Positions 19,549 through 38,799 of a stretch of DNA of 64,000 nucleotides are shown in pieces (position 1 is the first letter of the stretch; each line of letters begins with the position of its first letter). The notes under the pieces are model-generated. The model did no database searches. It was not told the origin of the DNA and was given only the letters and a program-made list of their open reading frames with translations. The position numbers and the translations under genes are program-made. Source of the stretch: an uncultured bacterium (lineage in GTDB: Bacteria; Actinomycetota; Actinomycetes; S36-B12); assembly GCA_963793105.1 (NCBI GenBank), contig CAWBZB010000004.1, positions 156,210 to 220,209 of the forward strand, given 5' to 3'.

Positions 19549-21227
19549 TCACGACGATCCCGGCGTTCGCAGAGCCTTCAGGGTGCTCCAGGCCCGACAC
19601 GCAAGCTGCAGATTGAAGTTCACGTCGGGATCGCCGATGGGCAGTCCGGACACGTCGCGGATCCGCTGGAGACGGTACTTCAAGGTGCTGCGATGGATGA
19701 GGAGCGCCTCCGCGGTCGCGTCATACCTCCCCCCGCATTCCAGGTAGCGGTACAACGTCAGCACGAGTTCGGAGTGGCGGCGCTCGTCATACTCGATCAG
19801 GGGGCCGAGCCACTGCGTCACGAACTTCTCGATCTCACGGGAGTCCTCGGCAGATGCGAGAAGCCGGTACACGCCCAGGTCGTCGAACGAGACCACATGG
19901 TGGGCTCCGATCCTGCCGTTGAGCAGGTTCAGGGCCAGCACGGCCTCGCGATGCGAAGTCGGGAAGTCCTCGGGGCCGTGGGTGAGTCCGCCCACGCCGA
20001 TACGGCAGTTGCCGCCCGCGAGCTCGCGGACGACGGTTTCCTGCACGTCCTCCCAGCCGACGTCGCGGTCCGTGAGGAGGACGACGGTGCCGGCGCGCGC
20101 GACCAGCAGCGACCCGAGACCGAAATCCCTGGCCGCGCGCCTGACAGCAGTGAAGAACTGGTCCTCGTCGCGCGTGCGGCCGCGCCCCTCGAAGACGACG
20201 ACGCGATGCGGAAGGTTCAGGTCGTGCTGGAACGCCTCTCCTCGCTGGACGGCGGACTCCCCGCCCGTGCCGGATAGCAGGTCCTCGACGAGATCACGCC
20301 GGACCCGGACTTCGGTGTCGGCGACCGTGCGCTGTCGCGCAAGTTCCATCGAGAGAATGGTGGCCCCGTACTCGAGAGCCGCGAGGTCCTCGTTGCGCGC
20401 CGCCCGCTCGGGGTCGATCAGGGCGATGACGCCCACAGAGTCCGGCCGAGGTGACGCGGCACGCATGACACGTCCGGACTCCCACGTCGACTGTCCCTCA
20501 CGCAGGAGACGCCTGAGCAACTGCTCTCGCCGGGCCGGCGGGTCCTTGGAGAACGTCGGGGGATCACCGGGGCCAGCCCACGCCCGCAGGTTCCCGTAGC
20601 GGTCCTCGATGATCACGGGTAGCCCCGTGACCTCGTGCACGGCGTTGGCGATCCCTTCCATCCCCTCACCCGACGCGGCAGCCCGGGTGAGTCGATCGTG
20701 GATCTCGATTCGCTGGGCTAGGGCGCTGACGGTCGCCTCGAGCTGGGAATTGACCGAGGCGAGCACGGCCGCCGCGTTGCGCTCGATCTGGTGAAGTCGG
20801 CTGTTGCGGATGGCGGTGCCGATCTGCTGGGCGAGGACGCGGAGCAGGAAATGCCCGTCGTTATCGATTCCACGACCCGCGGCCACGACCATGTGCCCCA
20901 GCGAGGTCGAGATGCCGCCGAGGGAGTATGCCCAGGCCCATTGCGACCCAGGGATCGCGACGGCTCCCCCATCCGTCGGCAGATCCAGAATCGCAGGCGG
21001 CGCGGCGATGTCATCGTCACCAGGAGTCCACACGGTGGTCTCCCCGTCATGGGTGAAGACGCCGACCAGCCGGCAGGCCGCGAAGAGGGGGCTGCGCTGG
21101 CCCCGAGCCGGATGATCTGCTTCTCGTCCGAGCTCTCCGTCATCAGCATTGACAGGACGAGCAGCGCGTTGAGCCGCGAGAGCTGACCACGCATCTCGAC
21201 GTCGGTCGCGGCATCCACCGCTGTCAT
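19549..21227 (-). pseudogene. PucR-family transcriptional regulator (GAF-like N-terminus, PucR C-terminal HTH), frameshifted in a G5/C5 run at 21087-21091
   Basis: The C-terminal 494 codons are ORF 19549..21033, with HTH LLIHRSTLKYRLQRIRDVSGL. The true N-terminus MTAVDAATDVEMRGQLSRLNALLVLSMLMTESSDEKQIIRLGASAAPS lies in ORF 20718..21470. Frames join as ...AAP/LFAACRLVGVFTHDGETTVWTPG. Its ATG 21227 overlaps the MEDS stop (ATGA). Confidence 0.8.
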
Positions 21228-21847
21228 GCCGGTTCGGGCACCCGGTTGGCCAGGAACTCGTGCGGCTCGAGGTAGTACGGGTTGTCCAGCAGCGTGCCGC
21301 ACAGCAGGATCTTGGGATGCGTTCTGAGCAAATCGACGACTACTCGACCGTCGAACTGGTCCAGGTCGTATAGACAGACGATTACCTGCGGGTACAGGGG
21401 CAGGAAGGTGTTGAGCTCGGCCTCGTACTCGACGAGATCCTCGACACCCGGCAGCTGCCTGAGCGCCCACGTCATCTCGCCTACGCTGCGCGCGAACTCA
21501 TACCTGCTCTCCTTCATCGAGCCGCCGACGGCTCCATCCCAGAAATCGAGCATCGCCGGCTTGGAGAAGCTGCCGTCCCTGAGGTACGTGTCTTTCGAGC
21601 ACAAGACAGCCAGCTGGTCGTCCGCGTCCGCCGTGACCGGAGCGACTTCGGCCCCGAGCCGGGATCGCAACTCCTCCGGATCTGCCTGATCGAGGACGGC
21701 AATGCACTTGTCACCGCGATCCAGGCCCGCCTGCAGGTACGGGACGAGGATTTCGTCGCGACCAGCCGAGGTCCGGTAAAAGGCGCAGACATGGTCGCCG
21801 ACCGAGACACTCATGCCTGGTGGACCGAAGGACACTGAGTTCTCCAC
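21224..21847 (-). CDS. MEDS-domain (DcmR-type sensory domain) protein
   Basis: ORF 21224..21847. GTG 21847 lies 8 nt after aaggagg. GDHVCAFY...YLQAGLDRGDKCI...VCLYDL pattern typical of MEDS domains. Confidence 0.7.
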   Translation of the reverse strand: MENSVSFGPPGMSVSVGDHVCAFYRTSAGRDEILVPYLQAGLDRGDKCIAVLDQADPEELRSRLGAEVAPVTADADDQLAVLCSKDTYLRDGSFSKPAMLDFWDGAVGGSMKESRYEFARSVGEMTWALRQLPGVEDLVEYEAELNTFLPLYPQVIVCLYDLDQFDGRVVVDLLRTHPKILLCGTLLDNPYYLEPHEFLANRVPEPA

Positions 21848-21936
21848 GAGGTTCGCCTCCTTGCGTGATGTCTGCCGAGCCTAGCTCCGATCAGACCATT
21901 CACATAGCCCTGCTAAGACGATTAGAAGGCATAGCT

Positions 21937-21953
21937 TCGTCCCACAGGGACGA
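21937..21953. promoter_or_regulatory. palindrome GTCCC-ACA-GGGAC upstream of the MEDS-PucR-cysH genes; operator candidate, or alternatively the terminator of the aldehyde dehydrogenase gene
   Basis: tcgtccc-aca-gggacga at 21937-21953. The core matches GTCCY-N3-RGGAC, which is seen twice at 30679-30707. Lies ~90 nt upstream of the MEDS start and 7 nt past the stop at 21960. Confidence 0.4.
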
Positions 21954-21959
21954 GGTTTG

Positions 21960-23391
21960 CTACTTGCCGTAGCGCGCCCAGTGCGCGGAGAAGATCTCGT
22001 CGGGATCCGCCGGACTCGGAGCGATGGTCCGCGAGACCCACGTCAGATTGACGAAGTGCCGAGCGTTCACGTTCTCCGTGGTGATGTTCCCGCCCCAGGT
22101 GCCGCAGCTCAGACTCAGGGTGAACGGGAGGCCGTTTCGCGCACTGCCGGCCCCCTCGTTGAGATTCTGGTTGACCATGACCCTGGCCGTGCGCGTGCCG
22201 AAGGCGAGGGCGTCAACGTGCTCGTCCGAGGCGGTGTGGATCCCGCAGGTATGCCCGAGGCCCTGATAGGCGGTGATGGCGTTCACCAGCCCGACCGCTT
22301 CATCGATGTCGAGCCGTAGCGGTACACCGCCAGGACGACCGAGAGCTTCTCGCCGGAGAATGGGTGAGCCGGGCCGGCACCATCCTCCTCCACCATGAGG
22401 AAGGTTGCGCCATCGGGAAGGGTGATGGCAGCCAGATCGGCGATGTGCTGGGCTGACTTGGCGATGACGTCAAGGGTCGGGATGTGCCCGCCATCGGGCC
22501 ACATCGCGGCCTGGAGCCGGGTCTTCTCGTCGGGCGTGCAGAGGTAGCCTCCCGCCGCCTGCAGGCGAGCCAGCAGGTCTTCGTAGACGGCGTCGGCAAC
22601 GATCAGAGAGTTGTCGGCAAGGCAGCTCGTCGCCAGGTCGAACGTCTTTCCCGCGGCGATCGTGGCTGCCGCGTCCGCTAGATCTGCGGTCTCGTCGACC
22701 ACATGCACCGAGTTCCCCACCCCGACGCCGTAGGCGGGAGTCCCGGAACTGTAGGCGGCCTTCACCATGGCGGCGCCGCCCGTGGCCACGATGAGATCGG
22801 CCTGGCGCATCAACTCCCGGGTCTTGTCGATCGACGGGGAGACGAGGCCCTGGATCAGGTCTTCGGGCGCACCGACCTGCGCGCAGGCGGCGCGCATGTA
22901 CTCGACGGAGAGCTCGCTGGTGCGCCTCGTGCGGGGATGGGGGGCGACGACGATGGCGTTGCGTCCCTTCAGCGCCATGAGCGCTTTCATGGGGGGGGTG
23001 GCATCCGGACCGGTCGTCGGGATGAGGGCCGCGACGACACCGACTGGCTTGGCGATCTTCACGAGGCCGCGCTCGGGATCCTCCTCGACGACGCCCACGG
23101 TGCGGATACTGCGCATGTCGGCCAGCAGCCCGGTCACGCGCCGGTGGATCTTCGTCACCTTGTCGTCGTACGTTCCGAAGCCGCCCTCGTCCACGGCGAG
23201 TCGAGCGAGCGTCTCGGGGTGATCGCCACCCACTATCGCCCACCCGACCGCGGTCACCAGTGCGTCGATCCGCTCCTGGTCCCAGTCGCTGATCGCCTCC
23301 GAGCCGCGCGGGCTCGAGCCACCACGGCGGCGATCTCATCGGCAACGGTCATTTCGGTTGCGGGCGCGGGAGAAGTCTCGGTGCTCGTCAT
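21960..23391 (-). pseudogene. CoA-acylating aldehyde dehydrogenase (EutE/PduP/SucD/SauS-like), two frameshifts
   Basis: Three fragments. ORF 23254..23463 holds the N-terminus MTSTETSPAPATEMTVADEIAAVVARARAA. ORF 22283..23257 holds the core with catalytic Cys in FDLATSCLADNSLIV. ORF 21960..22286 holds the C-terminus NAITAYQGLGHTCGIHT. Junctions read at ~23298-23304 (..ARAA/EAISDWDQERIDALVTAVGW) and ~22311-22316 (..VYRYG/LDIDEAVGLVNAI). Confidence 0.8.
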
Positions 23392-23511: not shown

Positions 23512-25091
23512 ATGACCACGACAGGAATGAACGTACGCAACGACGCCGTGAGCAACGCGGAGTGGCGGAGCCTGATCGACCGATTCGAATCGGGAGAACT
23601 CCAGGGCCCGATCCTCAACATCGACGAGGACTCGGACGTCGAGTACGACGCCATCTTCGTCGGCGGTGGAGCCGGTGGAAGATTTGGTTCCGCCTATCTC
23701 AGGGCGCGGGGCGGCCGGCAGCTACCGTCGACCGCTGGCCCTTCCTGGGCGGCTCGTGTCCGCATCAGGCCTGCGTCCCCCACCACCTGTTCTCGGAATC
23801 GGCGCGCGAACTGGACCTCGCGCGCATCCTGTCGGGCCGGCTGTGGTTCCCGGAGTTCGACGAATCGCGTGCGTCGATTCTCGACCTGGTCGAGCTGTTC
23901 AAGTCCGGCCGGAATAGCGCGCATGCCTTCATGAACTACCAGAGCAAGGAACAGCTGGGGATGGAGTACATCCTCAATGCCTCTGCCACGGTCATCGATG
24001 CCCACACCGTCGAGGTGGCCGGGCGCCGGTTCACCGCGAAGAACCTCGTGCTGGGCACTGGCGCGAGCACGGTGCCGCTCGACGTCCCGGGGATCGACCT
24101 CCCGGGAGTATTCGACTACGCGACCCTCATCGAGGATCTCGACTACGACCCGAAGTCGTGCGTGATCATCGGCGGGTCGAAGGTCGCGATCGAGTACGGC
24201 TCCTTCTTCCAGGCAGCCGGCTGCCAGACCACGATCCTCACGCGCAGCCCGCTGATGACGACGAAGAGCCTGCATCATGTGGACGAGGACGTACGGCAGT
24301 ACGTGGTGAGGGGAATGCGCGATCGGGGCATGTCGATCCTGGAGGGCGCCCATCCGATCGCCGTCGTCGGCACCAACCGGGCCACCGGCGTGACCGTGCG
24401 GCTTGCCGACGGGTCCACCGTGGATCTGCCGTGCGACATGGTCTTCATTGGTACGGGCGAGAGGGCGAACTCCGACCACTATGTCGATGTGCTCGGGGTC
24501 GCCGTCGATGATCGCGGGTCCATCGTCGTCGACGATCACATGCGCACGTCCGTCCCGAACGTCTATGCCGTGGGTGACCTCATCGGCCCCCCGATGGAGA
24601 TGTTCAAGGCTCGTAAGTGCGGGATGACGGCGGCTCGGAACATCATGGGCGAGGACTATTCGTTCGATTTCACCGAGTACCCGGATTTCCTGCATTCGAC
24701 CTACGAGGTCACGTGGGTCGGCTTGTCGGAGGCCGAGGCCCGGGCAACGTTCGAAGACGTCATCGTGATCCAGATGCCGCCACCCGGCGTTCCCCACGGA
24801 GACATCCCGCTGCCGTGCGCCGAGGGCACGATGCTCCTCGCGTTCACTCACCCGGAGAAGACCGGGTTCCAGAAGGCGATCTTCGACGCCAAGAGCCGCA
24901 AGCTGGTCGGAATTCACCATGTCGGCTTCGGGGCCAAGGACTCGTTCCAGTATCTGGACTTCCTCATCCACCGAACTGAGGGACTCACCATCGACGAACT
25001 GGCGGAGATGAACGAACTCTTCCTCAACTCGGGCCACTTCATCCAGTTGTCCCGGCTTCGCGCCGGCGCCATGGAGCTCAGCTCGCTGTAG
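23512..25091 (+). pseudogene. xecC: 2-oxopropyl-CoM reductase (carboxylating), 2-KPCC homologue; one frameshift at ~23721-23726
   Basis: N-terminus in ORF 23437..23934: MTTTGMNVRNDAVSNAEW...YDAIFVGGGAGGRFGSAYLRARGGRQL. The rest is in ORF 23412..25091: TVDRWPFLGGSCPHQACVPHHLF ... VPNVYAVGDLIGPPMEMFKARK ... ELFLNSGHFIQLSRLRAG. It is near-collinear with my recollection of Xanthobacter 2-KPCC, including CxxxxC and the Phe...His replacement of the DSOR His-Glu dyad. Confidence 0.85.
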
Positions 25092-26602
25092 CCCCATCGG
25101 TTGCCAGGGACCGGGCCACGTCAAGGAGCGATGCTCTCGAAGCGTTGTTGGCTGCTCGGCGCTCGACGCGCCAGGCGTCCTCGACCGCAACGAGGGCGCG
25201 AAGAGAGGCGATCTCGTCGCGCACCGCCTGTGGGGCGCATCCGCCAGCCTCGCGTCGAGACGCCACGAGCGTGGCGGGGTCGAGAACGGCTGCCACATCG
25301 AAGGTCGAGCCGGGGTCCGGCATGGCAGAGCCAGTGACGATCCGGGCGGCATCGTCGAGCGATGCCGCCGTGATCCCGCTCGCGTCCTCGAGTGAACGCG
25401 CGACGGCACGCCCCACCACGCGGTAGGCGGTCCGGTAGTCCAGGCCGACACGGAGGACCAGTTCGTCCGCCAGATCGGTGGCGGCGATCTGCTCGTCCTG
25501 AGCGGAACGGGACAGTGCTGAGGTGTCGATGGCGATCGTGCGGATCACTGCCGTCGCCAGTTCGACGATGCGACGTGACAGCACCAGGGACGACGAAACC
25601 TCGCCATACGTGTGCAGCCAGTTGTCCGTCTGCGCCGAGGGTGTCCTTGCAGTGGCCATGAGACCGGTGAGACGCCCGATCAGAGTGCTTGCGCCCGAGC
25701 GGATCACGGCCAGCGCGTACGGGTTGCGCTTCTGCGGCATGAGGACGGACGCCCGGCAGAGGGAGGCGTCCAGGGTGACGAAGCCGAAGGCAGGGCTCGC
25801 GAAGATCTGGAGGTCCTCGGCCAGCCGGTCCGCCGTCAGGGCGGCCTGAACGGCCGCGGCGACCACGTCGATCAGCCCGTCCAGATTCCACATTGTGTCG
25901 CGGGTGTTGCGCCCGACCGCAGCGAAGCCGAGGAGCTCGGCCAGGCCGTCGCGGTCCAGCCCGAGGCGCGTGCCGCCCACGCCCCCCGAGCCGGCGGGCG
26001 AGATGTTCGACCGACGAGTAGCACTGGCGCAGGCGGGGCAGGTCGCGGCCCGCCTCCTCGGCGAACGAGGCGATGTAGTGCCCGAAGGTGGAGGGCTGCG
26101 CCGGCTGCAGGTAGGTCATGTCCGCCCAGAGCGCATCGGCGGTCTCGTCGGCGCAGTCGGCCAGCGCCTGCGTGAAGTCCGAGGTGGCCTGCGCCAAGTC
26201 GAGGATCAACTCCCGGGTGGCGATTCGGAAGGCGATGCGGCCGGCCTCACGCCGAGTCCGACCGAGGTGGACCCAGCCGGCCAGGTCGCCGACTCGCCTG
26301 GTGAGCTCCTTCTCTCGGCTGTTGTAGGCGTCACCGAGCATGACGTCATAGGGGAACTCCTCGACCGGGACAGCGCCGAGCTCGAGAAGGGCAGCGAGAA
26401 GCGTCGGGGCGCGCTCAGCCGGCAGCAGCTCCTGTCGGGCGAGCGTGATGACATGTGCGAGGTCGGCGAGCGTGAGGCCGTCGTGCAGCAGCGGGGCGTC
26501 GCTGAGCTCAAGGGCGTATCCGGCGGCCACCATCTCCGGCGCCGGCCCCGACGAGATCCTGCCGTCGGTACCCAGGTAGCCCTCGGGCGTTGGCGCGCTC
26601 AC
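25078..26602 (-). pseudogene. aspartase/fumarase-superfamily lyase (argininosuccinate-lyase-like), CoM-biosynthesis type; one frameshift at ~26007-26012
   Basis: GTG 26602 follows aaggaggtg and overlaps the upstream stop (GTGA). The N-terminal half reads in the frame of ORF 25121..27460 (VSAPTPEGYLGT...TYLQPAQPSTFGHY...QCYSSV). The C-terminal half is ORF 25078..25980 (NISPAGSGGVGGTRLGLDR...SVLMPQKRNPYAL). Confidence 0.8.
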
Positions 26603-32128: not shown

Positions 32129-32847
32129 ACCGAGTTGCGATCGTCACGGGCGCCGGCAGCGGCATCGGCCGCGCGAGCAGCCTGCGACTGCAGAAAGACG
32201 GCATGACCGTGATCTCCCTCGACATCGACGTCGACGCTGCCGCGGAGGTGTCGCCTCACGCCTTGGCGCTGGACGTCTCCGATGCCGCACAGGTGGCCGA
32301 CGTCATGGCCGAGGTCCTCCACCGGTGGCCGCGCATCGATGTCCTCGTGAACAACGCGGGGATCACCGGGTCCGCGCAGGCGACAACGGCGCACGTCACG
32401 CCGATTGAGGAGTTCGACCGGGTCATGGCGGTGAACGTCCGCGGACCGTTCCTCTGCTCTCGTGCGGTGCTGGCGTCGATGATCGACGCGGGTGGCGGCC
32501 ACATCATCACGATTGCCTCGGCCGCGGGGATCGTCGCCTTCCCGGGTCGCTGCGCCTACACGACGTCCAAGGGCGCAGCCGTGCAGCTCGCGCGGTCGAT
32601 CGCCGTGGACTACGGCCGTATGGGCATCCGCTCCAACGCGATCTGCCCGGGGATGGTCGAGACCCCGATGACGCAGTGGCGTCTCGACCAGCCGGATCTG
32701 CGCGATCGCACCGAGAGCCAGATCCCCATGGGCCGGGTCGCCAGCCCCGACGAGATCGCCGACGTCGTCTCCGTCCTTGCATCAGGCCGAATGGGGTACG
32801 CCAACGGCGCCGCCCTGGTCATTGACGGCGGCTGGACCGCCTGGTGA
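32125..32847 (+). CDS. short-chain dehydrogenase/reductase, 2-hydroxypropyl-CoM dehydrogenase-like
   Basis: In ORF 32098..32847. ATG 32125 overlaps the upstream stop (ATGA). Begins MNRVAIVTGAGSGIG. NNAG motif and catalytic YTTSK. Confidence 0.75.
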   Translation: MNRVAIVTGAGSGIGRASSLRLQKDGMTVISLDIDVDAAAEVSPHALALDVSDAAQVADVMAEVLHRWPRIDVLVNNAGITGSAQATTAHVTPIEEFDRVMAVNVRGPFLCSRAVLASMIDAGGGHIITIASAAGIVAFPGRCAYTTSKGAAVQLARSIAVDYGRMGIRSNAICPGMVETPMTQWRLDQPDLRDRTESQIPMGRVASPDEIADVVSVLASGRMGYANGAALVIDGGWTAW

Positions 32848-32873
32848 CCACCACTCCAACGAAGGGAACCCCC

Positions 32874-33647
32874 ATGGCAGGCAGGCTCGAAGGCAAAGTC
32901 GCAATGATCACTGGAGCAGGATCCGGGATCGGCCGCGCGACCGCGGAACTCTTCGCACAGGAGGGAGCAGCCGTCGGGGTGCTCGACATCCGCGCCGACG
33001 CTGCCGGTGAGGTCGCCGCCGCAATCAGCGCCGCGGGCGGGCGGGCGATCGGCCTCGGGGCCGACGTGACCAAGGACGACCAGGTGCGGGCCGCTGGGAA
33101 CGAGGTGATCGCGACGTTCGGGGACATCTCCGTGCTGTACAACAACGCGGGGATCGGCAGCACCGGGGCAGTCGACGTCGCCGAGGAGGAGGACTGGGAT
33201 CGCTGCTTCGACATCAATGTCAAGGGCACCTTCCTGTGCTCCCGGGCGGTCGTGCCATCGATGCTGGCCGCCGGCGGAGGCTCGATCATCAACCAGGGCT
33301 CGGTGGCCGCCCTGGTGGGCGTCGCGAACTTCGCCGCGTACTGCGCCGCCAAGGGCGCCGTGGTTGCGCTCACCCGCTCGATGTCCGTCGACCTCGCCCC
33401 TCGTGGCATTCGCGTCAACGCGATCGCTCCGGGAACCGTCTACACGCCGCTGATGGAGCCGATGCTCACCGCTCGAGGCGGCGGCGACCTCGAGAAGGGT
33501 TTGGCGATGACCGTCGCCAAGTACCCGATCGGCCGACTCGGAAACCCTGAGGACATCGCGGCGGCGGCGCTCTTCCTGGCCAGCGACGAGGCAGCATTCG
33601 TGACCGGAGCGGTCCTCACGGCCGACGGCGGCATGACGACTCAGTAG
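32874..33647 (+). CDS. second short-chain dehydrogenase/reductase, 2-hydroxypropyl-CoM dehydrogenase-like paralogue
   Basis: In ORF 32844..33647. ATG 32874 follows aaggga and gives MAGRLEGKVAMITGAGSGIG. The alternative GTG 32844 overlaps the upstream stop. NNAG motif and catalytic YCAAK. Confidence 0.75.
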   Translation: MAGRLEGKVAMITGAGSGIGRATAELFAQEGAAVGVLDIRADAAGEVAAAISAAGGRAIGLGADVTKDDQVRAAGNEVIATFGDISVLYNNAGIGSTGAVDVAEEEDWDRCFDINVKGTFLCSRAVVPSMLAAGGGSIINQGSVAALVGVANFAAYCAAKGAVVALTRSMSVDLAPRGIRVNAIAPGTVYTPLMEPMLTARGGGDLEKGLAMTVAKYPIGRLGNPEDIAAAALFLASDEAAFVTGAVLTADGGMTTQ

Positions 33648-33657: not shown

Positions 33658-34569
33658 ATGTTCCTCGACCCCGACAAGCGCGTCGACCTCGCGGCGGCGG
33701 CCGGCCATGTCCGCGACGGTGCCATCGTCGCCCTCGGCGGAGGACTCTCCGCCAGGCTGCCGATGGCCCTCGTGCGCGAGATGATCCGTCAAGGCCGACG
33801 CGACCTCCACGTCGTCGGCTCCGCCCACGGCATCGACGTCGACATGCTCATCGGTGCGGGCGCGATCGCGATCTGCGAGGAGAGCTACGTAGGCTTCGAG
33901 CAGGACTTCGGACTGGCGCCCGCGTACCGGCGGGCGGCGAGTGCCGGCACGATCACGCTCCGGGAGAGCTGCTGCGTCACAATCCTCACCCAGCTGAGGG
34001 CCGCGGAGATGGGCCTGCCGTTCCTCCCGGTGAGAGGCATCATGGGCACGGACATGAGGCGCCTTCACCCTGAATACGCACAGACCACCTGTCCCTTCAC
34101 CGGGGAGGTCCTCGTCGCTGTACCACCGCTGGCTCCCGACGTCGCACTCCTGCACGCGCCGATGGGCGACATGCACGGCAACCTGCACCTCGAGCAGCCC
34201 TACGTGCTCGACGAGAGGTTCGCGGGCGCGTCCCGGGCCGTGGTGGCCACAGTCGACCGGATCGTGTCCGCGGACACGCTGGCCGAGGCCGGGGTCACCA
34301 TCCCGGGCTACCTGGTCCAGGCGGTCGCGGAGGTTCCGTACGGGGCCCATCCGGCATCCTGCTATCCCGGCTATGCCTACGATCGCGAGCATGTGGGGGC
34401 GTACGTGGCAGCCGCCAGCAGCGACGAGTCGATCGGCGAGTACCTGCGCGAGTGGGTACTCCTGCCTGATGGCGAGGTCGGATACCGGGCGAAGGTCGGC
34501 GAGGCGAGTCTCGCCCGCATCGCCGGCTGGTCGGAGTCCATCAACGCATGGAAGGGGCTCTTCGCATGA
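33658..34569 (+). CDS. CoA-transferase subunit A (glutaconate-CoA-transferase GctA-like)
   Basis: ORF 33658..34569. ATG follows agggag. DGAIVALGGGLSARLPMALVREMIRQG...HVVGSAHG pattern of family I CoA-transferase alpha subunits. Confidence 0.75.
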   Translation: MFLDPDKRVDLAAAAGHVRDGAIVALGGGLSARLPMALVREMIRQGRRDLHVVGSAHGIDVDMLIGAGAIAICEESYVGFEQDFGLAPAYRRAASAGTITLRESCCVTILTQLRAAEMGLPFLPVRGIMGTDMRRLHPEYAQTTCPFTGEVLVAVPPLAPDVALLHAPMGDMHGNLHLEQPYVLDERFAGASRAVVATVDRIVSADTLAEAGVTIPGYLVQAVAEVPYGAHPASCYPGYAYDREHVGAYVAAASSDESIGEYLREWVLLPDGEVGYRAKVGEASLARIAGWSESINAWKGLFA

Positions 34570-35396
34570 CGTACACGCTGGACGAGTGGTTCGTCGTCGC
34601 GCTCTCGCGCACGATCCGCGACAGGGAGTCGGTCTTCCATGGGTTCGGCAGTCCGTGCGCCCAAGTGGCGATGCACGTGGCGAAGCGGACGCACGCTCGG
34701 GACATGCTGCTCATCGAGGGAGCGATGTACGCCCTCAACCCGGATCCCCCGTTCATCCCTCCAACGGGGAACGATGCGAGCCTGAAGCGGGGCGCTGCCT
34801 ACAGCATGCGTTTCGAGGAGTTCTTCGATGCCGCCATCCGAGGGGACATCGACCGGATGTTCCTGTCCGGCGGCCAGATCGACGCCTACGGCAACACCAA
34901 CGTGACAGTCATCGGGCCGCTCGAGCGCCCCAAGGTCAAGCTCGGTGGCGGAGGCGGCGGATGCAACATCTCGGCGACCATCCGCCGACTCACGTTGTGG
35001 ACCACCCGGCACCGGTCGGGTCGCACCCTGGTGGATGCCTGCGACTTCATCACAGACATCGGGCACCGGACGCCGGCCGGAACACGAGCCGAGCTCGGCT
35101 ATACCGGCGGCGGACCGCAGTGGCTGGTCACAGAGCTCGGCGTGTTCGACTACGACGCCGATGGTCGCGCGCGCCTGCTGCAGGTGTTCCCCGACGTGAC
35201 CGTCGACCTGATCAGGTCCGTGACGGGCTTCGACTTCACCGTGGTGGGGGATCTCCGCACGGTGCCGCCGCCTAGCGATGCCGAGCTTGCCGTGGTCCGC
35301 AGCATCGATCCACTCGGCGTGCGCCGGGGCGAGTTCGACGCGGGCGAGCTGGCCCGCACGTTCGAGCATGCGCACGGGGCCACCTGCGGCTGCTGA
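34566..35396 (+). CDS. CoA-transferase subunit B (GctB-like)
   Basis: In ORF 34548..35396. ATG 34566 overlaps the subunit A stop (ATGA). Begins MTYTLDEWFVVALSR. FLSGGQIDAYGNTN motif typical of beta subunits. Confidence 0.75.
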   Translation: MTYTLDEWFVVALSRTIRDRESVFHGFGSPCAQVAMHVAKRTHARDMLLIEGAMYALNPDPPFIPPTGNDASLKRGAAYSMRFEEFFDAAIRGDIDRMFLSGGQIDAYGNTNVTVIGPLERPKVKLGGGGGGCNISATIRRLTLWTTRHRSGRTLVDACDFITDIGHRTPAGTRAELGYTGGGPQWLVTELGVFDYDADGRARLLQVFPDVTVDLIRSVTGFDFTVVGDLRTVPPPSDAELAVVRSIDPLGVRRGEFDAGELARTFEHAHGATCGC

Positions 35397-35397: not shown

Positions 35398-37479
35398 ATG
35401 AGCAGCCAGCGCTCGCTTCGCGCGATCTTCGAGCCACGCCGGGTGGCTGTCGTCGGGGCGTCGGAGCGGGCAGGCAGCCCCGGTGCCGTGATCTGGGGCA
35501 ACCTCGCACAGTTCCCGGGCGAGGTGGTGCCCGTCAGCCGCACGTCACAGACCGTCGACGGCCGACTCGCGTACGCGTCCCTGCGGGCAGTACCCGGCAC
35601 GATCGACCTCGCCGTGGTCGCGGTGCCCGCTGCGGCGGCGCTGCAGGTGGTGGAGGACGCCGTGGCCGCCGGAGTGCGAGCCATCGTGCTCGTGAGCGCC
35701 GGCTTTGCAGAGGCGGGCCCGGCCGGCGTCATCCTGCAGGACGAGATCGTTCGCACGGCGCGCGCGGGTGGCGTCCTCCTGGTCGGTCCCAACTGCCTGG
35801 GCGTGCAGAACTGCGACGTGCCGCTGAACGCCTCGCTCGCCTCTGGCATGACCGGTGGCCGCGGTGGCATCAGCCTCATCACGCAGTCCGGCTCCTACGC
35901 GATGGCCGTTCATGCGATGTCCTCGGAAGAGGGTCTGGGTTTCGCCATCGCCTACTCGTCGGGCAACCGGGCCGATATCGACGATGCGGAGGTCCTCGAC
36001 TACCTGCGGGAACACGACCGCACCGATGTGGTCTGCGTGTTCACGGAGTCGTTGGGAGATGGACGCGCCTTCCTCGATGCCGCCCGTCGGACGACGTGCG
36101 CGAAGCCCGTCATCGTCGCTGCGGTCGGGAGGTCCGAAGCTGGGGCGCGCGCTGCCGCGTCGCACACCGCCGCCCTGGCCGCGGACCGGCGCGCGTGGAA
36201 CGACCTCCTTCGCGGCGCGGGTATCACCGTCGCGAGTTCGGGGATCGAGATGCTCGATGCGGCGCGAGTGCTTCAGGACCAGGCGCCGCCAACTGGGCGC
36301 CGGGCCGCGATCATCACCAACTCCGGCGGCACGGGAACGGAACTGGCCGATCTCCTGGCGGACGAGGGAGTGGTCCTCCCGGAGTTGTCCGTGGGCCTGC
36401 GGGCCAGACTCGCCGAACTGCTGCCGGACTATGCGAGTACCTCGAACCCAGTGGACATCACTCCTGTCTGGTCGCGCTTCGCTGAGATCTATCCGGCCGT
36501 GCTCGATGTTCTCGCGAGGTCCGGCGAGGTGGATCTCGTGGTGCCGGTTCTCCTGCACCGATCCGCGGAGGATGCTGGCGTCGCGGAAGGAATCGTGCGC
36601 ACGTTCGAGTCACTGCGCAGGGATGGCGTTTCGGTACCGGTGTACGTGTGCTGGGTCGCCCGGCGATCAGCGTGGGGCATTGCCGCTTCAATGCAGCGCG
36701 CCGGAATCCCCTGCCTGGAGTGGCCGCCGCGCGCCGCCCGGGCGATCGGGCATGCGGTCCGCTACGGGGACTTCCGGCGCAGGACGCAGAGTGAGCCGCC
36801 CGAGCGGGCAGCCGTCCCCCAGCGCTCCCTGCCGCAATCCGTCGGAGTCGACGCGGAGTCGACCTACACGTTCCTGACCGAGAACGGGATTCCGATCGTC
36901 GAGACGATCTTCGTCGCGGATTCGGCTGCGGCGGTGGCTGCCGCGCGACGTGTCGGCTACCCGGTGGCTCTCAAGGTCGATCATCCGGATCTCTCGCACA
37001 AGAGCGATGTCGGCGGCGTTCGCCTCGACCTCGCGAACGACGCTGCGGTCAGCGACGCGGCGTCGGCGCTCCTCGCCGTCGCGCCCGCTACCCGACTCGT
37101 GGTGCAGCCCATGTCGACTGGGGTGGAGGTGGTGATCGGGGGCATTCGCGAGCCGACCTTCGGGCCGGTCGTCGTGTTCGGGCTCGGCGGTGTGCTGGTG
37201 GAGCTCATCGCCGATGTCCGCTTCGCCGCCGCTCCGCTCACGACGTCTGAGTCCGCGAGTCTGGTGAGGGCGCCGAGGGGCGCCGCGATCCTCGCAGGAG
37301 TACGTGGGAGATCGCCCACAGACCTGGGGGCCCTGGCCGCGACGGCGCGCGCGGTGGGTGACCTCATGGCCGCGTACCCGGAGCTGCTTGAGTTGGACCT
37401 CAATCCCGTCCTCGCCGGGCAGGAAACATGCACTGCCGTGGACTTCCGGGCGGTCGTAGTCCGCGCGAACCAAGCCTGA
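35398..37479 (+). CDS. ADP-forming acyl-CoA synthetase (acetate--CoA ligase family, fused alpha/beta)
   Basis: In ORF 35278..37479. ATG 35398 lies 1 nt after the upstream stop. CoA-binding N-terminus (RVAVVGASERAGSPG), succinyl-CoA-synthetase-like ligase domain and C-terminal ATP-grasp (GYPVALKV...SDVGGVRL). Confidence 0.8.
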   Translation: MSSQRSLRAIFEPRRVAVVGASERAGSPGAVIWGNLAQFPGEVVPVSRTSQTVDGRLAYASLRAVPGTIDLAVVAVPAAAALQVVEDAVAAGVRAIVLVSAGFAEAGPAGVILQDEIVRTARAGGVLLVGPNCLGVQNCDVPLNASLASGMTGGRGGISLITQSGSYAMAVHAMSSEEGLGFAIAYSSGNRADIDDAEVLDYLREHDRTDVVCVFTESLGDGRAFLDAARRTTCAKPVIVAAVGRSEAGARAAASHTAALAADRRAWNDLLRGAGITVASSGIEMLDAARVLQDQAPPTGRRAAIITNSGGTGTELADLLADEGVVLPELSVGLRARLAELLPDYASTSNPVDITPVWSRFAEIYPAVLDVLARSGEVDLVVPVLLHRSAEDAGVAEGIVRTFESLRRDGVSVPVYVCWVARRSAWGIAASMQRAGIPCLEWPPRAARAIGHAVRYGDFRRRTQSEPPERAAVPQRSLPQSVGVDAESTYTFLTENGIPIVETIFVADSAAAVAAARRVGYPVALKVDHPDLSHKSDVGGVRLDLANDAAVSDAASALLAVAPATRLVVQPMSTGVEVVIGGIREPTFGPVVVFGLGGVLVELIADVRFAAAPLTTSESASLVRAPRGAAILAGVRGRSPTDLGALAATARAVGDLMAAYPELLELDLNPVLAGQETCTAVDFRAVVVRANQA

Positions 37480-37633
37480 CCTCGTCCGCTGCTGTCAGCG
37501 AAACCACACATTTTCACCCTGCCGGGTCGGGGCTTGTCGCCACTTCTGGCCTTCGAGGGCGAGGCAGCCACGCCCGGACTGCACATACGTTTCTTGGACC
37601 ACGTTCCCGGAGTGGATCCCCTAAGGAGTCTCT

Positions 37634-38737
37634 ATGAAGGTTGGATCGAGCGACATCCTGCTGCCCACCACGATGGTCGGCAACTACCCGAACCCACGGT
37701 GGTACGACGGCCACGCGTTCGCCACGTACCCCAAGGGCGAGTTCGTCTACGACGCCATCAGTCGCGAGGCATACGAGGATGCCGTGGGCGCAATCGTCCA
37801 CGATCAGGAGTCGGCCGGACTCGACATCATCAGCGACGGCAAGGTCTACGGGGGCGACTCGCCGTACGGCCAGATCCTCTACCACTACATCGAGCGGATG
37901 TCCGGCTACAAAGCGTCGGGGCCCCCCATCGGGCTGCCCATCTACTCGACCCTGTACAGCCCGACGGCCGTGGGAGAGGTACGCCGCGAGCACCCGTTCC
38001 ATGGCGCCGCGCTGCGCGCGATGAAGAAGGCCACCAAGAAGCCGGTCAAGGTCTCCTACACCGGCATGCAGGTGCTGGCGGCCGCCAGCACGAACCAGTA
38101 CTACCCCGAGGTTCGCGACCTCGCGATCGCGATCGCGAAGGCCTTCAATGAGGACTTCAAGGAACTCGCCGACAACGGCTGCGACATCATTCAGATCGAC
38201 GAGTTCGTGTGGCCGTACGGAATGGGCGATTGGGAGATCGAGGTGTTCAACACCGCAGTCGAGGGTGTGGGATGTCAGATCTGGACCCATACCTGCTGGG
38301 GCAACTACTCCGGCACGCCAGGCTACTTCCCCGACGACGAGGAGACCGAGTTCGGCGCTTGGGTCCTCGACAAGCGGCCTGAGGACGCTCCCGCCCCCGA
38401 GCGGGCACTGGCCATCTTCCCGCACGTGAAGAACGCCAACATGACCGCACTCAATTACGAGGTGGGCCGGACCGGCGAGGATGACCTGAAGCCTCTCGTC
38501 GACAACAACTGGGACAAGGACTTCGTGGCGGGCATCATCGATGTCAAGAGCACGATCACGGAGACGGCGGACGAGGTTGCCGACCGCATCCGGATGGTCC
38601 TGAAGTACGTTCCCGCAGAGCGACTCGGTCTCAGCACGGACTGCGGTCTCATCAACCTGCCGCGCATGGTGGGCTACGGAAAGCTCCGCGCACTTGCGGA
38701 CGGTGCGGCGATCGTGCGCAAGGAACTGAACGCCTAG
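37634..38737 (+). CDS. etnE: epoxyalkane:coenzyme M transferase (MetE-C-terminal-domain zinc alkyltransferase)
   Basis: ORF 37634..38737 (367 aa). ATG follows taaggag. MetE-like barrel with Zn-ligand motifs H-x-C (IWTHTCWGN) and C (LSTDCGL). Size and N-terminus (MKVGSSDILLPTTMVGNYPNPRW) fit EaCoMT, and the context holds CoM genes. Confidence 0.8.
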   Translation: MKVGSSDILLPTTMVGNYPNPRWYDGHAFATYPKGEFVYDAISREAYEDAVGAIVHDQESAGLDIISDGKVYGGDSPYGQILYHYIERMSGYKASGPPIGLPIYSTLYSPTAVGEVRREHPFHGAALRAMKKATKKPVKVSYTGMQVLAAASTNQYYPEVRDLAIAIAKAFNEDFKELADNGCDIIQIDEFVWPYGMGDWEIEVFNTAVEGVGCQIWTHTCWGNYSGTPGYFPDDEETEFGAWVLDKRPEDAPAPERALAIFPHVKNANMTALNYEVGRTGEDDLKPLVDNNWDKDFVAGIIDVKSTITETADEVADRIRMVLKYVPAERLGLSTDCGLINLPRMVGYGKLRALADGAAIVRKELNA

Positions 38738-38757
38738 TCGCAACGGCATCACCGTTT

Positions 38758-38799
38758 CGGCTGCGGCCCGAGGGACGTGTTCCCCTCGGGCCGCAGCCG
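38758..38799 (+). terminator. hairpin terminator after etnE
   Basis: cggctgcggcccgaggg (38758-38774), loop acgtgttc, ccctcgggccgcagccg (38783-38799). Perfect 17-bp stem followed by ttcctctttgc. Confidence 0.65.

What the first reader, a model, noticed from the sequence alone, without database searches (positions are those of the whole stretch)
21224..38799. About 17.5-kb coenzyme M island: EaCoMT, two HPCDH-like SDRs, 2-KPCC and a bacterial-type CoM biosynthesis operon in an actinobacterial core region
Seen in the sequence:
- A MetE-like zinc alkyltransferase of EaCoMT size with H-x-C...C ligands (37634-38737).
- Two tandem SDRs (32125-33647).
- A DSOR that is collinear with 2-KPCC and has CPHQAC plus the F...H substitution (23512-25091).
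- A ComA homologue heading an operon with two aspartase/fumarase-superfamily genes and a PLP enzyme (25078-30627).

Established knowledge:
- This enzyme set is the epoxide carboxylase system of Xanthobacter autotrophicus Py2 and Gordonia B-276.
- The ComA + aspartase/fumarase + PLP combination is the bacterial (xcb-type) CoM pathway.
- A CoA-transferase and acyl-CoA synthetase immediately upstream of etnE is the arrangement reported for ethene and vinyl chloride oxidisers such as Nocardioides JS614.

Bacterial CoM use is rare, so finding the whole catabolic and biosynthetic set together is the most notable content of the window.
Basis: partly seen in the sequence, partly recalled or inferred. 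Interest (0 to 1): 0.85.

Follow-up and report, generated by a model that had tools for sequence, protein, structure and literature searches.

The report
Coenzyme M epoxide-pathway gene island
The window carries a real, roughly 22-kb island for making coenzyme M and using it to break down small epoxides; it belongs to a known kind of island that is common in uncultured soil actinobacteria, it has no alkene monooxygenase next to it, and single-base indels, most likely assembly errors, break eight of its genes in the sequence as given.

Summary
They form the etn-type cluster known from Nocardioides JS614 and Mycolicibacterium NBB4.

- **Content:** EtnE (84% identical to JS614), a 2-KPCC homologue with every signature residue, an R-HPCDH-like and an S-HPCDH-like SDR, two CoA-transferase subunits, an ADP-forming acyl-CoA synthetase, and all five bacterial CoM biosynthesis genes (XcbA-E).
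  - The island runs further left, to about 16.6 kb. That stretch holds the regulators EtnR1/EtnR2, a PAPS reductase, a LinB-like haloalkane dehalogenase and an F420 oxidoreductase.
  - The island also holds an acylating aldehyde dehydrogenase and a CoA-disulfide-reductase-like gene.
  - No alkene monooxygenase is anywhere in the window.
  - About 16 single-base indels, all between 21085 and 30606, break EtnR1, the aldehyde dehydrogenase, the 2-KPCC homologue and XcbC/E/D/A, and alter the N-terminus of ComA.
- **Indels:** Near-identical sequences from other datasets are intact at most of these sites, and the indel-to-substitution ratio fits long-read assembly error. I read them as artefacts (about 80%), not decay.
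- **Rarity:** The cluster is not rare. 174 species-level genomes encode a close EtnE relative, and only 7 of 57 well-flanked loci have EtnC nearby.

Verdict: a new member of a known kind, of modest interest.

The parts
16637..17560 (-). F420-dependent LLM-class oxidoreductase (TIGR03564 family). It is associated with the island in NBB4 and in several related loci. Role unknown.
   Evidence: NCBIfam TIGR03564 scores 294.6 bits against a cutoff of 234. 55% identical to the NBB4 homologue. Found in 8 related loci.
17826..18698 (+). LinB-type haloalkane dehalogenase (HLD-II) with motifs consistent with the catalytic residues: HGNPTSSYLW, GHDWG, HMEAI and RHF.
   Evidence: PDB 6S06/1MJ5/1IZ7, E = 2e-100. 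Conserved next to the PAPS reductase in the closest relatives L084-L086, and on a near-identical Logan contig.
18833..19528 (-). PAPS/APS reductase, the likely source of sulfite for ComA.
   Evidence: Pfam PAPS_reduct, E = 5.5e-38. A homologue sits in the JS614 cluster. The 231-aa gene call is the same on the Logan contigs.
19549..21227 (-). EtnR1 homologue, a CdaR/PucR-type activator. A 1-base deletion at 21085 splits off the first ~47 codons.
   Evidence: Pfam GGDEF_2 + HTH_30. The frameshift is seen against JS614, L084, L086, L087 and L088. An intact 559-aa form is on Logan ERR15459714; the truncated 494-aa form is on ERR12037369.
21224..21847 (-). EtnR2 homologue (MEDS-domain sensor), intact.
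   Evidence: Pfam MEDS, E = 1.6e-43. No frameshift. The exact protein is found on two Logan contigs.
21960..23391 (-). Acylating (CoA-dependent) aldehyde dehydrogenase, SauS-like. 1-base deletions at 22313 and 23301.
   Evidence: Frameshifts. The Logan contigs keep this frame open for 221-223 codons, against 169 in the window.
23512..25091 (+). 2-KPCC homologue (NADPH:2-ketoalkyl-CoM oxidoreductase/carboxylase clade). A 1-base deletion at 23724 falls between the FAD-binding motif and CPHQAC.
   Evidence: PDB 1MO9, E = 2e-153 for residues 70-523 and E = 1.6e-15 for residues 5-69 in the other frame. 94.6% identical to the intact L084 protein.
25078..26602 (-). XcbC homologue (argininosuccinate-lyase-like; eliminates phosphate from phosphosulfolactate). 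1-base insertion at 26006.
   Evidence: Pfam Lyase_1 + ASL_C2 on the C-terminal fragment. Frameshift. L088 is intact at this site.
26599..27578 (-). XcbE homologue (PLP enzyme, D-cysteine desulfhydrase-like). 1-base insertions at 27036 and 27292.
   Evidence: Three tblastn pieces in three frames. L088 is intact at both sites. The Logan contig has at least 301 open codons, against 190 in the window.
27571..28912 (-). XcbD homologue (adenylosuccinate-lyase-like; adds cysteine to sulfoacrylate). A burst of five 1-base deletions at 28536-28638.
   Evidence: An intact 448-aa gene is on the Logan ERR15459714 contig.
28909..29837 (-). XcbA-family protein (DUF7714; called 'xcbF1' by PMC8727900), the presumed terminal reductase. 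Indels at 29172, 29248 and 29517.
   Evidence: NCBIfam NF052538 (XcbA family) scores 396 bits against a cutoff of 150. L088 is ~100% identical around this gene and lacks all three indels. An intact 309-aa gene is on the Logan contig.
29851..30627 (-). XcbB/ComA phosphosulfolactate synthase. An extra A at 30605 replaces the first 7 residues; the rest is intact.
   Evidence: Pfam ComA, E = 5e-79. The repaired 257-aa protein exists exactly in ENA (P0135). The window's 258-aa form (P0136) sits on a 1.15-Mb contig.
30791..32128 (+). CoA-disulfide-reductase-like flavoprotein (second DSOR), intact. Possibly keeps the thiol cofactor reduced.
   Evidence: NCBIfam TIGR03385 scores 392 bits, below the 579-bit cutoff. 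Conserved in JS614 and NBB4 and seen in 44 of the 80 related loci.
32125..32847 (+). SDR 1, R-HPCDH-like. The equivalents of the CoM-binding Arg152 and Arg196 are conserved.
   Evidence: PDB 2CFC scores 243 bits; the next hit scores 152.
32874..33647 (+). SDR 2, nearest to S-HPCDH but not clearly separated from other SDRs.
   Evidence: PDB 4GH5 scores 211 bits; the next hit scores 204. The Lys214 equivalent is kept; the Arg211 equivalent is Thr. 68-72% identical to the JS614 and NBB4 SDRs.
33658..35396 (+). Two-subunit CoA-transferase (33658-34569 and 34566-35396), intact.
   Evidence: Pfam CoA_trans. 69-76% identical to JS614 and NBB4. No frameshift.
35398..37479 (+). ADP-forming acyl-CoA synthetase (CoA-binding + ATP-grasp), intact.
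   Evidence: Pfam ATP-grasp_5, Succ_CoA_lig and CoA_binding. NCBIfam acetate--CoA ligase family.
37634..38737 (+). EtnE, epoxyalkane:CoM transferase (zinc, MetE-like), intact.
   Evidence: 84% identical to JS614 EtnE. H219-x-C221 and C337. Pfam Meth_synt_2.

Best explanation
This is a chromosomally integrated, horizontally acquired etn-type island of an uncultured high-GC actinobacterium. It makes coenzyme M and uses it to assimilate or detoxify small epoxides.

**Proposed working** (gene identities are shown here; the chemistry is inferred from characterised homologues)
1. EtnR2 (MEDS sensor) and EtnR1 (activator) switch the genes on in response to an epoxide.
2. PAPS reductase supplies sulfite.
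3. XcbB/ComA, XcbC, XcbD, XcbE and XcbA convert phosphoenolpyruvate, sulfite and cysteine into CoM.
4. The zinc enzyme EtnE opens the epoxide with the CoM thiolate to give a 2-hydroxyalkyl-CoM.
5. The HPCDH-like SDRs oxidise that product to the 2-oxoalkyl-CoM.
6. The 2-KPCC homologue reductively cleaves the C-S bond and regenerates CoM.
7. The acylating aldehyde dehydrogenase, the CoA-transferase and the ADP-forming acyl-CoA synthetase carry the carbon to acetyl-CoA-level products. This last part is unresolved in the literature as well.

**Source of the epoxide.** No epoxide-forming monooxygenase lies nearby. The epoxide must therefore come from outside, from an oxygenase elsewhere in the genome, or possibly from haloalkanes through the adjacent LinB-type dehalogenase.

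**The indels.** The ~16 single-base indels between 21085 and 30606 are most likely consensus errors of a long-read metagenome assembly, made where strains are mixed. They are not biological gene loss.
For: **Identity and synteny**
- The run EtnR2/EtnR1, ALDH, 2-KPCC-like, XcbC-E-D-A-B, CoADR-like, SDR, CoA-transferase x2, ACS, EtnE is collinear with JS614 pNOCA01 and NBB4 pMYCCH.01.
- The 2-KPCC match is E = 2e-153. The equivalents of C82/C87, H84, H137, M140, R365, F501/H506 and R56/F57 are all conserved.
- XcbA family scores 396 bits. The R-HPCDH hit keeps both CoM-binding arginines. EtnE has the zinc ligands.
- Functions of the homologues come from the literature: Xcb pathway (PMC9457059); EtnR1/R2 respond to ethylene oxide but not ethylene (PMC11197473); a monooxygenase-less cluster in a methanotroph is induced and linked to epoxide detoxification (PMC11507031).
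- Foreign origin: GC is 67.8% in the island against 70% in the flanks, and GC3 is lower in the island genes.

**Indels as artefacts**
- All lie in one 9.5-kb block. Ten other island genes gave none, the eleventh only one doubtful end-of-gene call, and 20 core ORFs gave no sign of any.
- No in-frame stop codons fall inside the aligned segments. The repaired proteins are 78-95% identical to L084, as conserved as the intact genes. Private changes at otherwise invariant positions are few and mostly conservative.
- Repairing the indels restores exactly the gene lengths seen in relatives: 559, 477, 521, 507, 325, 448, 309 and 257 aa.
- L088 differs from the window by only 6 substitutions over 29.0-34.0 kb. 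It nevertheless lacks the window's indels at 29172, 29250, 29518 and 30606, and has its own at 29696 and 33883.
- Logan ERR15459714 contigs that carry the exact EtnR2 and CoADR-like proteins have intact EtnR1, XcbD, XcbA and ComA, and open XcbE and ALDH frames.
- Among the 80 related loci, split genes occur in 27 of the 37 Microflora Danica Nanopore MAG loci and in none of the 43 others (PMC12313526).
Against: - No reads were available, so the indels cannot be proven to be errors.
- One independent Logan contig (ERR12037369) shows the same truncated 494-aa EtnR1 as the window. At least the 21085 deletion may therefore be real, or a systematic error.
- Apart from ComA, none of the repaired proteins was found as an exact sequence in the public collection. 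The 'same strain' comparators are thus only near-identical.
- No same-strain comparator covers the 2-KPCC indel (23724) or the ALDH indel (23301).
- The indels are mostly not in homopolymers, which is atypical for polished Nanopore data.
- No enzyme activity, CoM detection or induction data exist for this organism.
- The source of the epoxide is unknown.
Confidence: 0.65

Rival explanations
1. The island is a decaying relic. The indels are real, so CoM biosynthesis (XcbA, C, D, E), the 2-KPCC homologue, the aldehyde dehydrogenase and EtnR1 are pseudogenes, and the pathway no longer works in this strain.
For: - The window as given contains ~16 frameshifting indels in eight adjacent genes.
- Most are outside homopolymers.
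- One Logan contig from another run (ERR12037369) reproduces the truncated EtnR1.
- The island lacks a monooxygenase, so selection could have been relaxed.
Against: - There are no nonsense mutations and no larger deletions, and the amino-acid conservation is normal.
- The intact right half of the same pathway (ComA apart from its first residues, CoADR-like, SDRs, CoA-transferase, ACS, EtnE) has no confirmed frameshift in 8 kb. Pathway-wide relaxed selection would not spare it.
- Near-identical sequences are intact at 12 or more of the sites.
- Between the window and L088 there are 4 window-specific and 2 L088-specific indels against 6 substitutions in 5 kb. That is an error signature, not a mutational one.
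Confidence: 0.15
2. The organism is an ordinary ethene/propene (or vinyl chloride) assimilator. Its alkene monooxygenase is simply encoded elsewhere in the genome, and the island works exactly as in JS614 or NBB4.
For: - Every cultured actinobacterial carrier of this cluster is an alkene oxidiser (PMC8727900, PMC11197473).
- EtnE sequences linked to EtnABCD are scattered throughout the EtnE tree, next to unlinked ones. Linkage is therefore labile.
Against: - In characterised strains etnABCD is adjacent to etnE.
- Here etnE abuts nrdJ, and no EtnA-D homologue is found in 64 kb.
- Only 7 of 57 related loci with at least 8 kb on both sides have EtnC.
Confidence: 0.3
3. The MetE-like, DSOR and SDR genes serve sulfonate or methionine metabolism unrelated to epoxides, for example sulfolactate or sulfoacetaldehyde catabolism.
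For: - The aldehyde dehydrogenase is SauS-like.
- ComA homologues also occur in sulfolactate contexts.
- NCBIfam has no EaCoMT model, and EtnE's only NCBIfam matches, all below their cutoffs, are to methionine synthase models.
Against: - EtnE is 84% identical to the EtnE of an ethene/vinyl chloride oxidiser.
- The DSOR carries the full set of 2-KPCC-specific residues.
- All five Xcb genes are present, including the XcbA family above its cutoff.
- Synteny with etn clusters spans at least 15 genes.
Confidence: 0.03

Closest known systems
Ethene/vinyl chloride (etn) cluster of Nocardioides sp. JS614, plasmid pNOCA01 (NC_008697)
   Same: - Gene content and order match: MEDS/EtnR2 + EtnR1, aldehyde dehydrogenase, PAPS reductase, ASL-like, PLP, ADSL-like, XcbA-family, ComA, CoADR-like, SDR, CoA-transferase x2, ACS, EtnE.
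- Protein identities run from 42% to 84%, with EtnE at 84%.
   Different: - JS614 has etnABCD directly downstream of etnE, and its cluster lies on a conjugative plasmid.
- Here etnE is followed by chromosomal nrdJ/nrdR and there is no monooxygenase.
- The window has two tandem SDRs (as in NBB4) and an adjacent LinB-type dehalogenase.
- Eight genes carry indels in the window sequence.
Ethene cluster of Mycolicibacterium chubuense NBB4, plasmid pMYCCH.01 (NC_018022)
   Same: - Same cluster, including two tandem SDRs and the TIGR03564 F420 oxidoreductase.
- 73% nucleotide identity over the SDR-to-ACS stretch.
- EtnR1/EtnR2 were shown experimentally to respond to ethylene oxide (PMC11197473).
   Different: NBB4 carries etnABCD about 3 kb away on the plasmid, and has no haloalkane dehalogenase in the cluster.
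Epoxide carboxylase system (XecA/EaCoMT, R-/S-HPCDH, 2-KPCC) and XcbA-E of Xanthobacter autotrophicus Py2
   Same: - Biochemically characterised homologues exist for each step.
- The window's DSOR keeps all 2-KPCC signature residues, and SDR1 keeps the CoM-binding arginines of R-HPCDH.
- All five Xcb families are present (PMC9457059).
   Different: - The sequences are much more distant than those of the actinobacterial etn clusters.
- The window's cluster adds a CoA-transferase, an ACS, an acylating aldehyde dehydrogenase and a CoADR-like gene, which point to a C2 (epoxyethane) route whose last steps are unresolved.
- SDR2 lacks the equivalent of Arg211 of S-HPCDH.
Monooxygenase-less epoxyethane/CoM cluster of the methanotroph Methylohalobius crimeensis 10Ki (PMC11507031)
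   Same: - An etnE plus CoM-biosynthesis island within a genomic island, with a MEDS regulator and without a dedicated alkene monooxygenase.
- It is interpreted as epoxide detoxification.
   Different: - A gammaproteobacterial host, in which pMMO supplies the epoxide.
- Its proteins are only 36-54% identical to the actinobacterial ones, according to that paper.
- In the window's organism the source of the epoxide is unknown.

Membership tests
Epoxyalkane:CoM transferase (EaCoMT; EtnE/XecA) | A stand-alone MetE-like catalytic domain of about 370 aa with the His-x-Cys ... Cys zinc ligands | tested here: met
   367 aa. Pfam Meth_synt_2. H219-T-C221 and C337, matching JS614 H212-x-C214 and C330.
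Epoxyalkane:CoM transferase (EaCoMT; EtnE/XecA) | Groups with EtnE of known alkene/vinyl chloride oxidisers rather than with methionine synthases | tested here: met
   84% identical to JS614 EtnE. NCBIfam methionine synthase models score well below their cutoffs (195 against 406 bits). Lies inside the EtnE tree of 80 cluster-linked homologues.
Epoxyalkane:CoM transferase (EaCoMT; EtnE/XecA) | Catalyses addition of CoM to epoxyethane or epoxypropane | not testable with these tools
   Needs an enzyme assay.
2-KPCC (NADPH:2-ketopropyl-CoM oxidoreductase/carboxylase) | DSOR fold with the redox-active Cys82-x4-Cys87, and a Phe501/His506 pair in place of the His-Glu dyad | tested here: met
   CPHQAC and ELFLNSGHF align with CPHNAC and ELFLNPTHF of 1MO9. 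E = 2e-153, against 5e-30 for the next DSOR.
2-KPCC (NADPH:2-ketopropyl-CoM oxidoreductase/carboxylase) | CoM- and substrate-binding residues Arg56/Phe57, His84, His137, Met140 and Arg365 | tested here: met
   All are conserved in the alignment to 1MO9. The N-terminal piece in frame +1 aligns to residues 5-69.
2-KPCC (NADPH:2-ketopropyl-CoM oxidoreductase/carboxylase) | One uninterrupted reading frame encoding both the FAD motif and the active site | tested here: not met
   A 1-base deletion at 23724 separates GGGAGGRFGS (frame +1) from CPHQAC (frame +3). Probably an assembly error, but no same-strain sequence covers this site.
2-KPCC (NADPH:2-ketopropyl-CoM oxidoreductase/carboxylase) | Carboxylates the enolate to acetoacetate | not testable with these tools
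   Needs biochemistry. In etn-type clusters the physiological reaction is unresolved.
R-/S-hydroxypropyl-CoM dehydrogenases (HPCDH) | R-HPCDH: SDR with the Ser-Tyr-Lys triad and the sulfonate-binding Arg152 and Arg196 | tested here: met
   SDR1 (32125-32847): 2CFC is the top hit at 243 bits, with the next at 152. PGRCAYTTSKGA and TQWRLDQP are conserved.
R-/S-hydroxypropyl-CoM dehydrogenases (HPCDH) | S-HPCDH: sulfonate-binding Arg211 and Lys214 | tested here: not met
   SDR2 (32874-33647): 4GH5 is the top hit, but only marginally (211 against 204 bits). The Lys214 equivalent is kept; the Arg211 equivalent is Thr. The numbering is my own, derived from the tag offset.
Bacterial CoM biosynthesis (XcbA-E) | All five gene families present and clustered: XcbB/ComA, XcbC (ASL-like), XcbD (ADSL-like), XcbE (PLP) and XcbA | tested here: met
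   Pfam ComA, E = 5e-79. Lyase_1/ASL_C2 fragments. PLP and ADSL pieces by tblastn. NCBIfam XcbA family at 396 bits against a cutoff of 150.
Bacterial CoM biosynthesis (XcbA-E) | Uninterrupted reading frames | tested here: not met
   XcbC, XcbE, XcbD and XcbA each carry 1 to 5 single-base indels, and ComA has an altered N-terminus. Intact versions exist in near-identical sequences.
Actinobacterial etn (ethene/vinyl chloride) catabolic cluster | EtnABCD soluble di-iron alkene monooxygenase adjacent to etnE | tested here: not met
   No tblastn hit to EtnA-D of JS614 or NBB4 anywhere in the window at E <= 1e-5. etnE is followed by nrdJ.
Actinobacterial etn (ethene/vinyl chloride) catabolic cluster | EtnR1/EtnR2 regulators, and a CoA-transferase plus acyl-CoA synthetase upstream of etnE | tested here: met

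The most novel reading that the evidence does not exclude
Islands with EaCoMT and CoM biosynthesis but no alkene monooxygenase are the majority form in uncultured soil and freshwater Actinomycetota. They would form a self-contained system for scavenging or detoxifying epoxides. In this lineage the system may also be fed by a LinB-type haloalkane dehalogenase (haloalkane to haloalcohol to epoxide to CoM adduct). That would supply the missing downstream route for ethylene oxide in dihaloethane degraders such as Mycobacterium GP1.
Probability: 0.2. Interest if true: 0.55.

Novelty: new member of a known kind. Interest (0 to 1): 0.3.

Why it matters
- **CoM is not rare in bacteria.** CoM-dependent epoxide metabolism, usually described as a rarity of a few alkene-oxidising isolates, is encoded in well over a hundred species-level genomes of mostly uncultured Actinomycetota, usually without an adjacent alkene monooxygenase. 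This points to an under-appreciated sink for epoxides, and indirectly for ethylene, other alkenes or haloalkanes, in soils.
- **A caution for annotation.** In this window an automated annotation would call half of the island pseudogenes. The comparison shows this is most probably an assembly artefact of a long-read metagenome bin.
- **No new biochemistry.** For this particular window nothing biochemically new is demonstrated.

Tried and rejected
- **Source genome.** Exact-protein look-ups of EtnE, NrdR, FTHFS and ComA found nothing. FdhD, EtnR2 and the CoADR-like protein were found, but the contig of over 1 Mb that carries them is not shown.
- **Repaired proteins.** I looked up the repaired full-length proteins as exact sequences. 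Only ComA exists (ENA contig of L088). The repaired XcbA, XcbE, XcbC, XcbD, 2-KPCC, EtnR1 and aldehyde dehydrogenase are not in the collection. Direct proof of an identical intact strain is therefore lacking.
- **Closest 2-KPCC relatives.** The members of its 90% cluster reach at most 96.5% identity.
- **Homopolymer test.** The indel sites are mostly not in homopolymers, so this simple signature of Nanopore error is absent.
- **Conserved-site test for neutral decay.** There is only a small excess of mostly conservative private changes in the frameshifted genes. This is suggestive but not decisive.
- **Mobile-element signs.** No tRNA was found, and no integrase or transposase domain in the flanking ORFs that were scanned.
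- **A suspicious coincidence.** Two GDSL-lipase ORFs gave identical Pfam scores. They are unrelated in sequence and there is no repeat.
- **Rejected reading.** I rejected a sulfolactate or methionine metabolism reading (see the rival explanations).

Full report
**Gene calling.** The window has about 70% GC, so raw ORF lists are dominated by shadow ORFs. I used third-position GC to pick the coding frames. Between about 21 and 30 kb the coding frame on the minus strand changes every few hundred bases. That was the first sign of frameshifts.

**Identity of the genes.**
- EtnE (37634-38737) is a 367-aa MetE-like protein with H219-x-C221 and C337. It is 84% identical to EtnE of Nocardioides JS614.
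- The DSOR matches 2-KPCC of Xanthobacter (1MO9) at E = 2e-153, against 5e-30 for the next-best disulfide reductase.
  - It keeps CPHQAC (C82/C87, H84), H137, M140, R365 and the F501/H506 pair.
  - A 65-residue piece upstream in another frame matches only 2-KPCC residues 5-69, including GxGxxG and R56/F57.
- SDR1 is clearly R-HPCDH-like: 2CFC scores 243 bits, the next hit 152, and both sulfonate-binding arginines are kept.
- SDR2 is nearest to S-HPCDH but barely separated from generic SDRs, and lacks the Arg211 equivalent.
- On the minus strand ComA (XcbB) is followed by four genes:
  - an XcbA-family protein (NCBIfam, 396 bits against a cutoff of 150; Pfam DUF7714; the 'xcbF1' of PMC8727900);
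  - an ADSL-like gene (XcbD);
  - a PLP gene (XcbE);
  - an ASL-like gene (XcbC).
  - Together with ComA these are the complete five-enzyme bacterial CoM pathway of PMC9457059.
  - a CoA-disulfide-reductase-like flavoprotein (30791-32128);
  - a SauS-like acylating aldehyde dehydrogenase (21960-23391);
  - the EtnR2 (MEDS) and EtnR1 (CdaR/PucR) regulator pair (19549-21847);
  - a PAPS reductase;
  - a LinB-type haloalkane dehalogenase (17826-18698; E = 2e-100 to PDB haloalkane dehalogenases);
  - a TIGR03564 F420 oxidoreductase.

**Synteny.** A nucleotide search of plasmids hit only the ethene/vinyl chloride clusters of Nocardioides JS614 (pNOCA01) and M. chubuense NBB4 (pMYCCH.01), at 73-75% identity over the SDR-to-EtnE stretch. 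Their annotation shows the same genes in the same order. The one large difference is the monooxygenase. Both plasmids carry etnABCD beside etnE. The window has no EtnA-D homologue anywhere, and etnE abuts nrdJ/nrdR.

**Genomic context.** The flanks are ordinary chromosomal genes: cysE/cysK, a CDF transporter and an amidase on the left, and nrdJ, nrdR, dinG, hflX, FTHFS, formate dehydrogenase, dapF, miaA and miaB on the right. The island is slightly lower in GC (67.8% against 70%) and in GC3. No tRNA, integrase or transposase marks its ends.

**Frameshifts in the window.** I aligned JS614, NBB4 and later the closer L084 proteins to the DNA with a frameshift-aware dynamic programme. I then aligned the nucleotides with three relatives that are about 82% identical (L084, L086, L087).
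- Single-base indels lie at 21085 (EtnR1), 22313 and 23301 (ALDH), 23724 (2-KPCC), 26006 (XcbC), 27036 and 27292 (XcbE), 28536/28545/28609/28633/28638 (XcbD), 29172/29248/29517 (XcbA) and 30605 (ComA, N-terminus only).
- No in-frame stop codon falls inside any aligned segment.
- The same procedure on eleven other island genes found none in ten of them. In the eleventh (the CoADR-like gene) it made one call, at the extreme C-terminal end and with only one of two references, which I treat as an artefact.
- Twenty core ORFs show essentially full-length matches to NCBIfam models.

**Real decay or artefact? Arguments for artefact.**
- The repaired proteins are as conserved as the intact ones (78-95% against 72-90% identity to L084).
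- Their private changes at otherwise invariant alignment columns are few and mostly conservative.
- Repairing the indels yields exactly the lengths seen in relatives.
- L088, an ENA metagenome contig that carries the exact CoADR-like protein, differs from the window by 6 substitutions over 29.0-34.0 kb. It lacks the four window indels in that stretch and has two of its own. An indel-to-substitution ratio like that indicates consensus error in both assemblies.
- Logan contigs from run ERR15459714 carry the exact EtnR2 and CoADR-like proteins. They have a 559-aa EtnR1, a 448-aa XcbD, a 309-aa XcbA, a 257-aa ComA, and open frames through the XcbE and ALDH sites, where the window's frames close.
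- The repaired 257-aa ComA exists exactly in ENA. The window's altered 258-aa form is on a 1.15-Mb contig deposited in NCBI and ENA.
- Among the 80 related loci, split genes occur in 27 of the 37 Microflora Danica Nanopore MAG loci and in none of the 43 others (PMC12313526).
- L084 and L085, which are 99.6% identical, differ by three indels, and L085 has three split genes (EtnR1, the aldehyde dehydrogenase and SDR1) that are whole in L084.

**Real decay or artefact? Arguments against artefact.**
- The sites are mostly not homopolymers.
- One Logan contig (ERR12037369) reproduces the truncated 494-aa EtnR1.
- No near-identical comparator covers 23301 or 23724.
- Apart from ComA, the repaired proteins were not found as exact sequences.

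I put about 80% on artefact.

**Distribution.** A scan of one genome per species (GTDB representatives) found 174 genomes that encode a close EtnE relative. The 80 loci retrieved are 77-94% identical and nearly all belong to uncultured or little-studied Actinomycetota, including Streptosporangiaceae, Pseudonocardiales, Kribbella, Nocardioides and Acidimicrobiales. All but one (L003) carry CoM and etn genes around EtnE, in two main arrangements. Of 57 loci with at least 8 kb on both sides, only 7 contain EtnC, and these are scattered across the EtnE tree. A search with the 2-KPCC homologue returned more than 1000 proteins at E <= 1e-30. The best 120 are all 67-96% identical, most of them about 520 aa long, and come from soil, freshwater and other metagenomes. 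'Rare' is therefore true of cultured bacteria only.

**Literature.**
- The etn cluster and its CoM genes in mycobacteria and JS614 are described in PMC8727900.
- The Xcb chemistry is in PMC9457059.
- The EtnR1/EtnR2 pair responds to ethylene oxide, not ethylene. The same paper notes that homologues co-occur with alkene and CoM genes in other Actinobacteria of unknown phenotype (PMC11197473).
- A monooxygenase-less version in methanotrophs is interpreted as epoxide detoxification (PMC11507031).
- I found no paper that describes the monooxygenase-less form as the common state in Actinomycetota, or a link to a haloalkane dehalogenase.
- The downstream fate of ethylene oxide formed from 1,2-dibromoethane in Mycobacterium GP1 is still described as unclear (PMC6802363, citing Poelarends 1999).

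**Verdict.** The island is a further member of a known cluster type, not a rarity. It lacks the oxygenase that would make it the 'whole catabolic set'. Its apparent half-decayed state is most likely an assembly artefact. The monooxygenase-less architecture and the adjacent dehalogenase are the only mildly new angles, and both are hypotheses.

Noticed in passing
window 17826-18698 (+): A LinB-type (HLD-II) haloalkane dehalogenase with motifs consistent with the catalytic residues sits at the left edge of the island, next to the PAPS reductase. The closest relatives (L084-L086) have its homologue (about 81% identical), and a near-identical Logan contig calls a 290-aa alpha/beta-hydrolase at the same position. 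JS614, NBB4 and the other loci lack it. It may feed haloalkane-derived epoxides into the CoM pathway.
   Followed up: partly
window 10692-12659 (-): One 655-aa ORF combines an EamA/RhtA-like transporter (residues 22-275) with an aldo-keto reductase (residues 338-626), with no stop between them. It is either a real fusion or a lost stop or frame error.
   Followed up: no
L003 (MFD09779.bin.2.167, labelled Acidobacteriota), 10001-11101: The closest EtnE relative (94% amino-acid and 87.5% nucleotide identity) stands alone. None of the other etn or CoM genes lies within 10 kb on either side.
   Followed up: partly
L024, L028-L031, L040, L049, L051, L056, L067, L070, L072, L075 and others: Many loci, several labelled Streptosporangiaceae, have a second, distant MetE-like paralogue (under 35% identical to EtnE) upstream of the MEDS gene. 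They also place the CoM genes downstream of EtnE, with no SDR pair or 2-KPCC homologue within 10 kb. This is a second cluster architecture.
   Followed up: no
L088 (ENA ERZ25039600 contig_18609) against window 20.8-38.7 kb: The contig is a mosaic. It is ~100% identical to the window at 29-34 kb and 38-38.7 kb, 95-99% at 25.5-29 kb, and only 76-94% at 20.8-25.5 kb. At 35-38 kb it has dozens of extra bases. It looks like a noisy, strain-chimeric long-read assembly.
   Followed up: yes
L084 against L085 (ENA ERZ25039603 and GCA_942491545.1): The two assemblies are 99.6% identical and differ by exactly three single-base indels. L085 has three split genes (EtnR1, the aldehyde dehydrogenase and SDR1) that are whole in L084. 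This is another example of indel noise in this island in public MAGs.
   Followed up: partly
window 28909-29837 (-) and the literature: The conserved ~309-aa 'hypothetical' gene, called xcbF1 and of unknown function in PMC8727900, is now an NCBIfam XcbA-family member. XcbA is the [2Fe-2S] terminal reductase of PMC9457059. PMC11507031 instead treats the aldehyde dehydrogenase as the functional analogue of XcbA. The nomenclature in the literature is inconsistent.
   Followed up: partly
window 50720-57981 (+): A formate module lies in the core flank: formate-tetrahydrofolate ligase, FdhD, a gap at 53228-53669 that may hold the small 2Fe-2S thioredoxin-like gene seen at this position on a Logan contig, a NuoF-like subunit and a formate dehydrogenase alpha subunit. 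It is ordinary, but it is C1 metabolism next to the island.
   Followed up: no
window 42722-43855 (-) and 45349-46191 (+): Two GDSL-lipase-like ORFs gave identical Pfam scores (35.3 bits, E = 2.1e-08). They are unrelated in sequence and are not repeats. This is a coincidence or a scoring quirk.
   Followed up: yes
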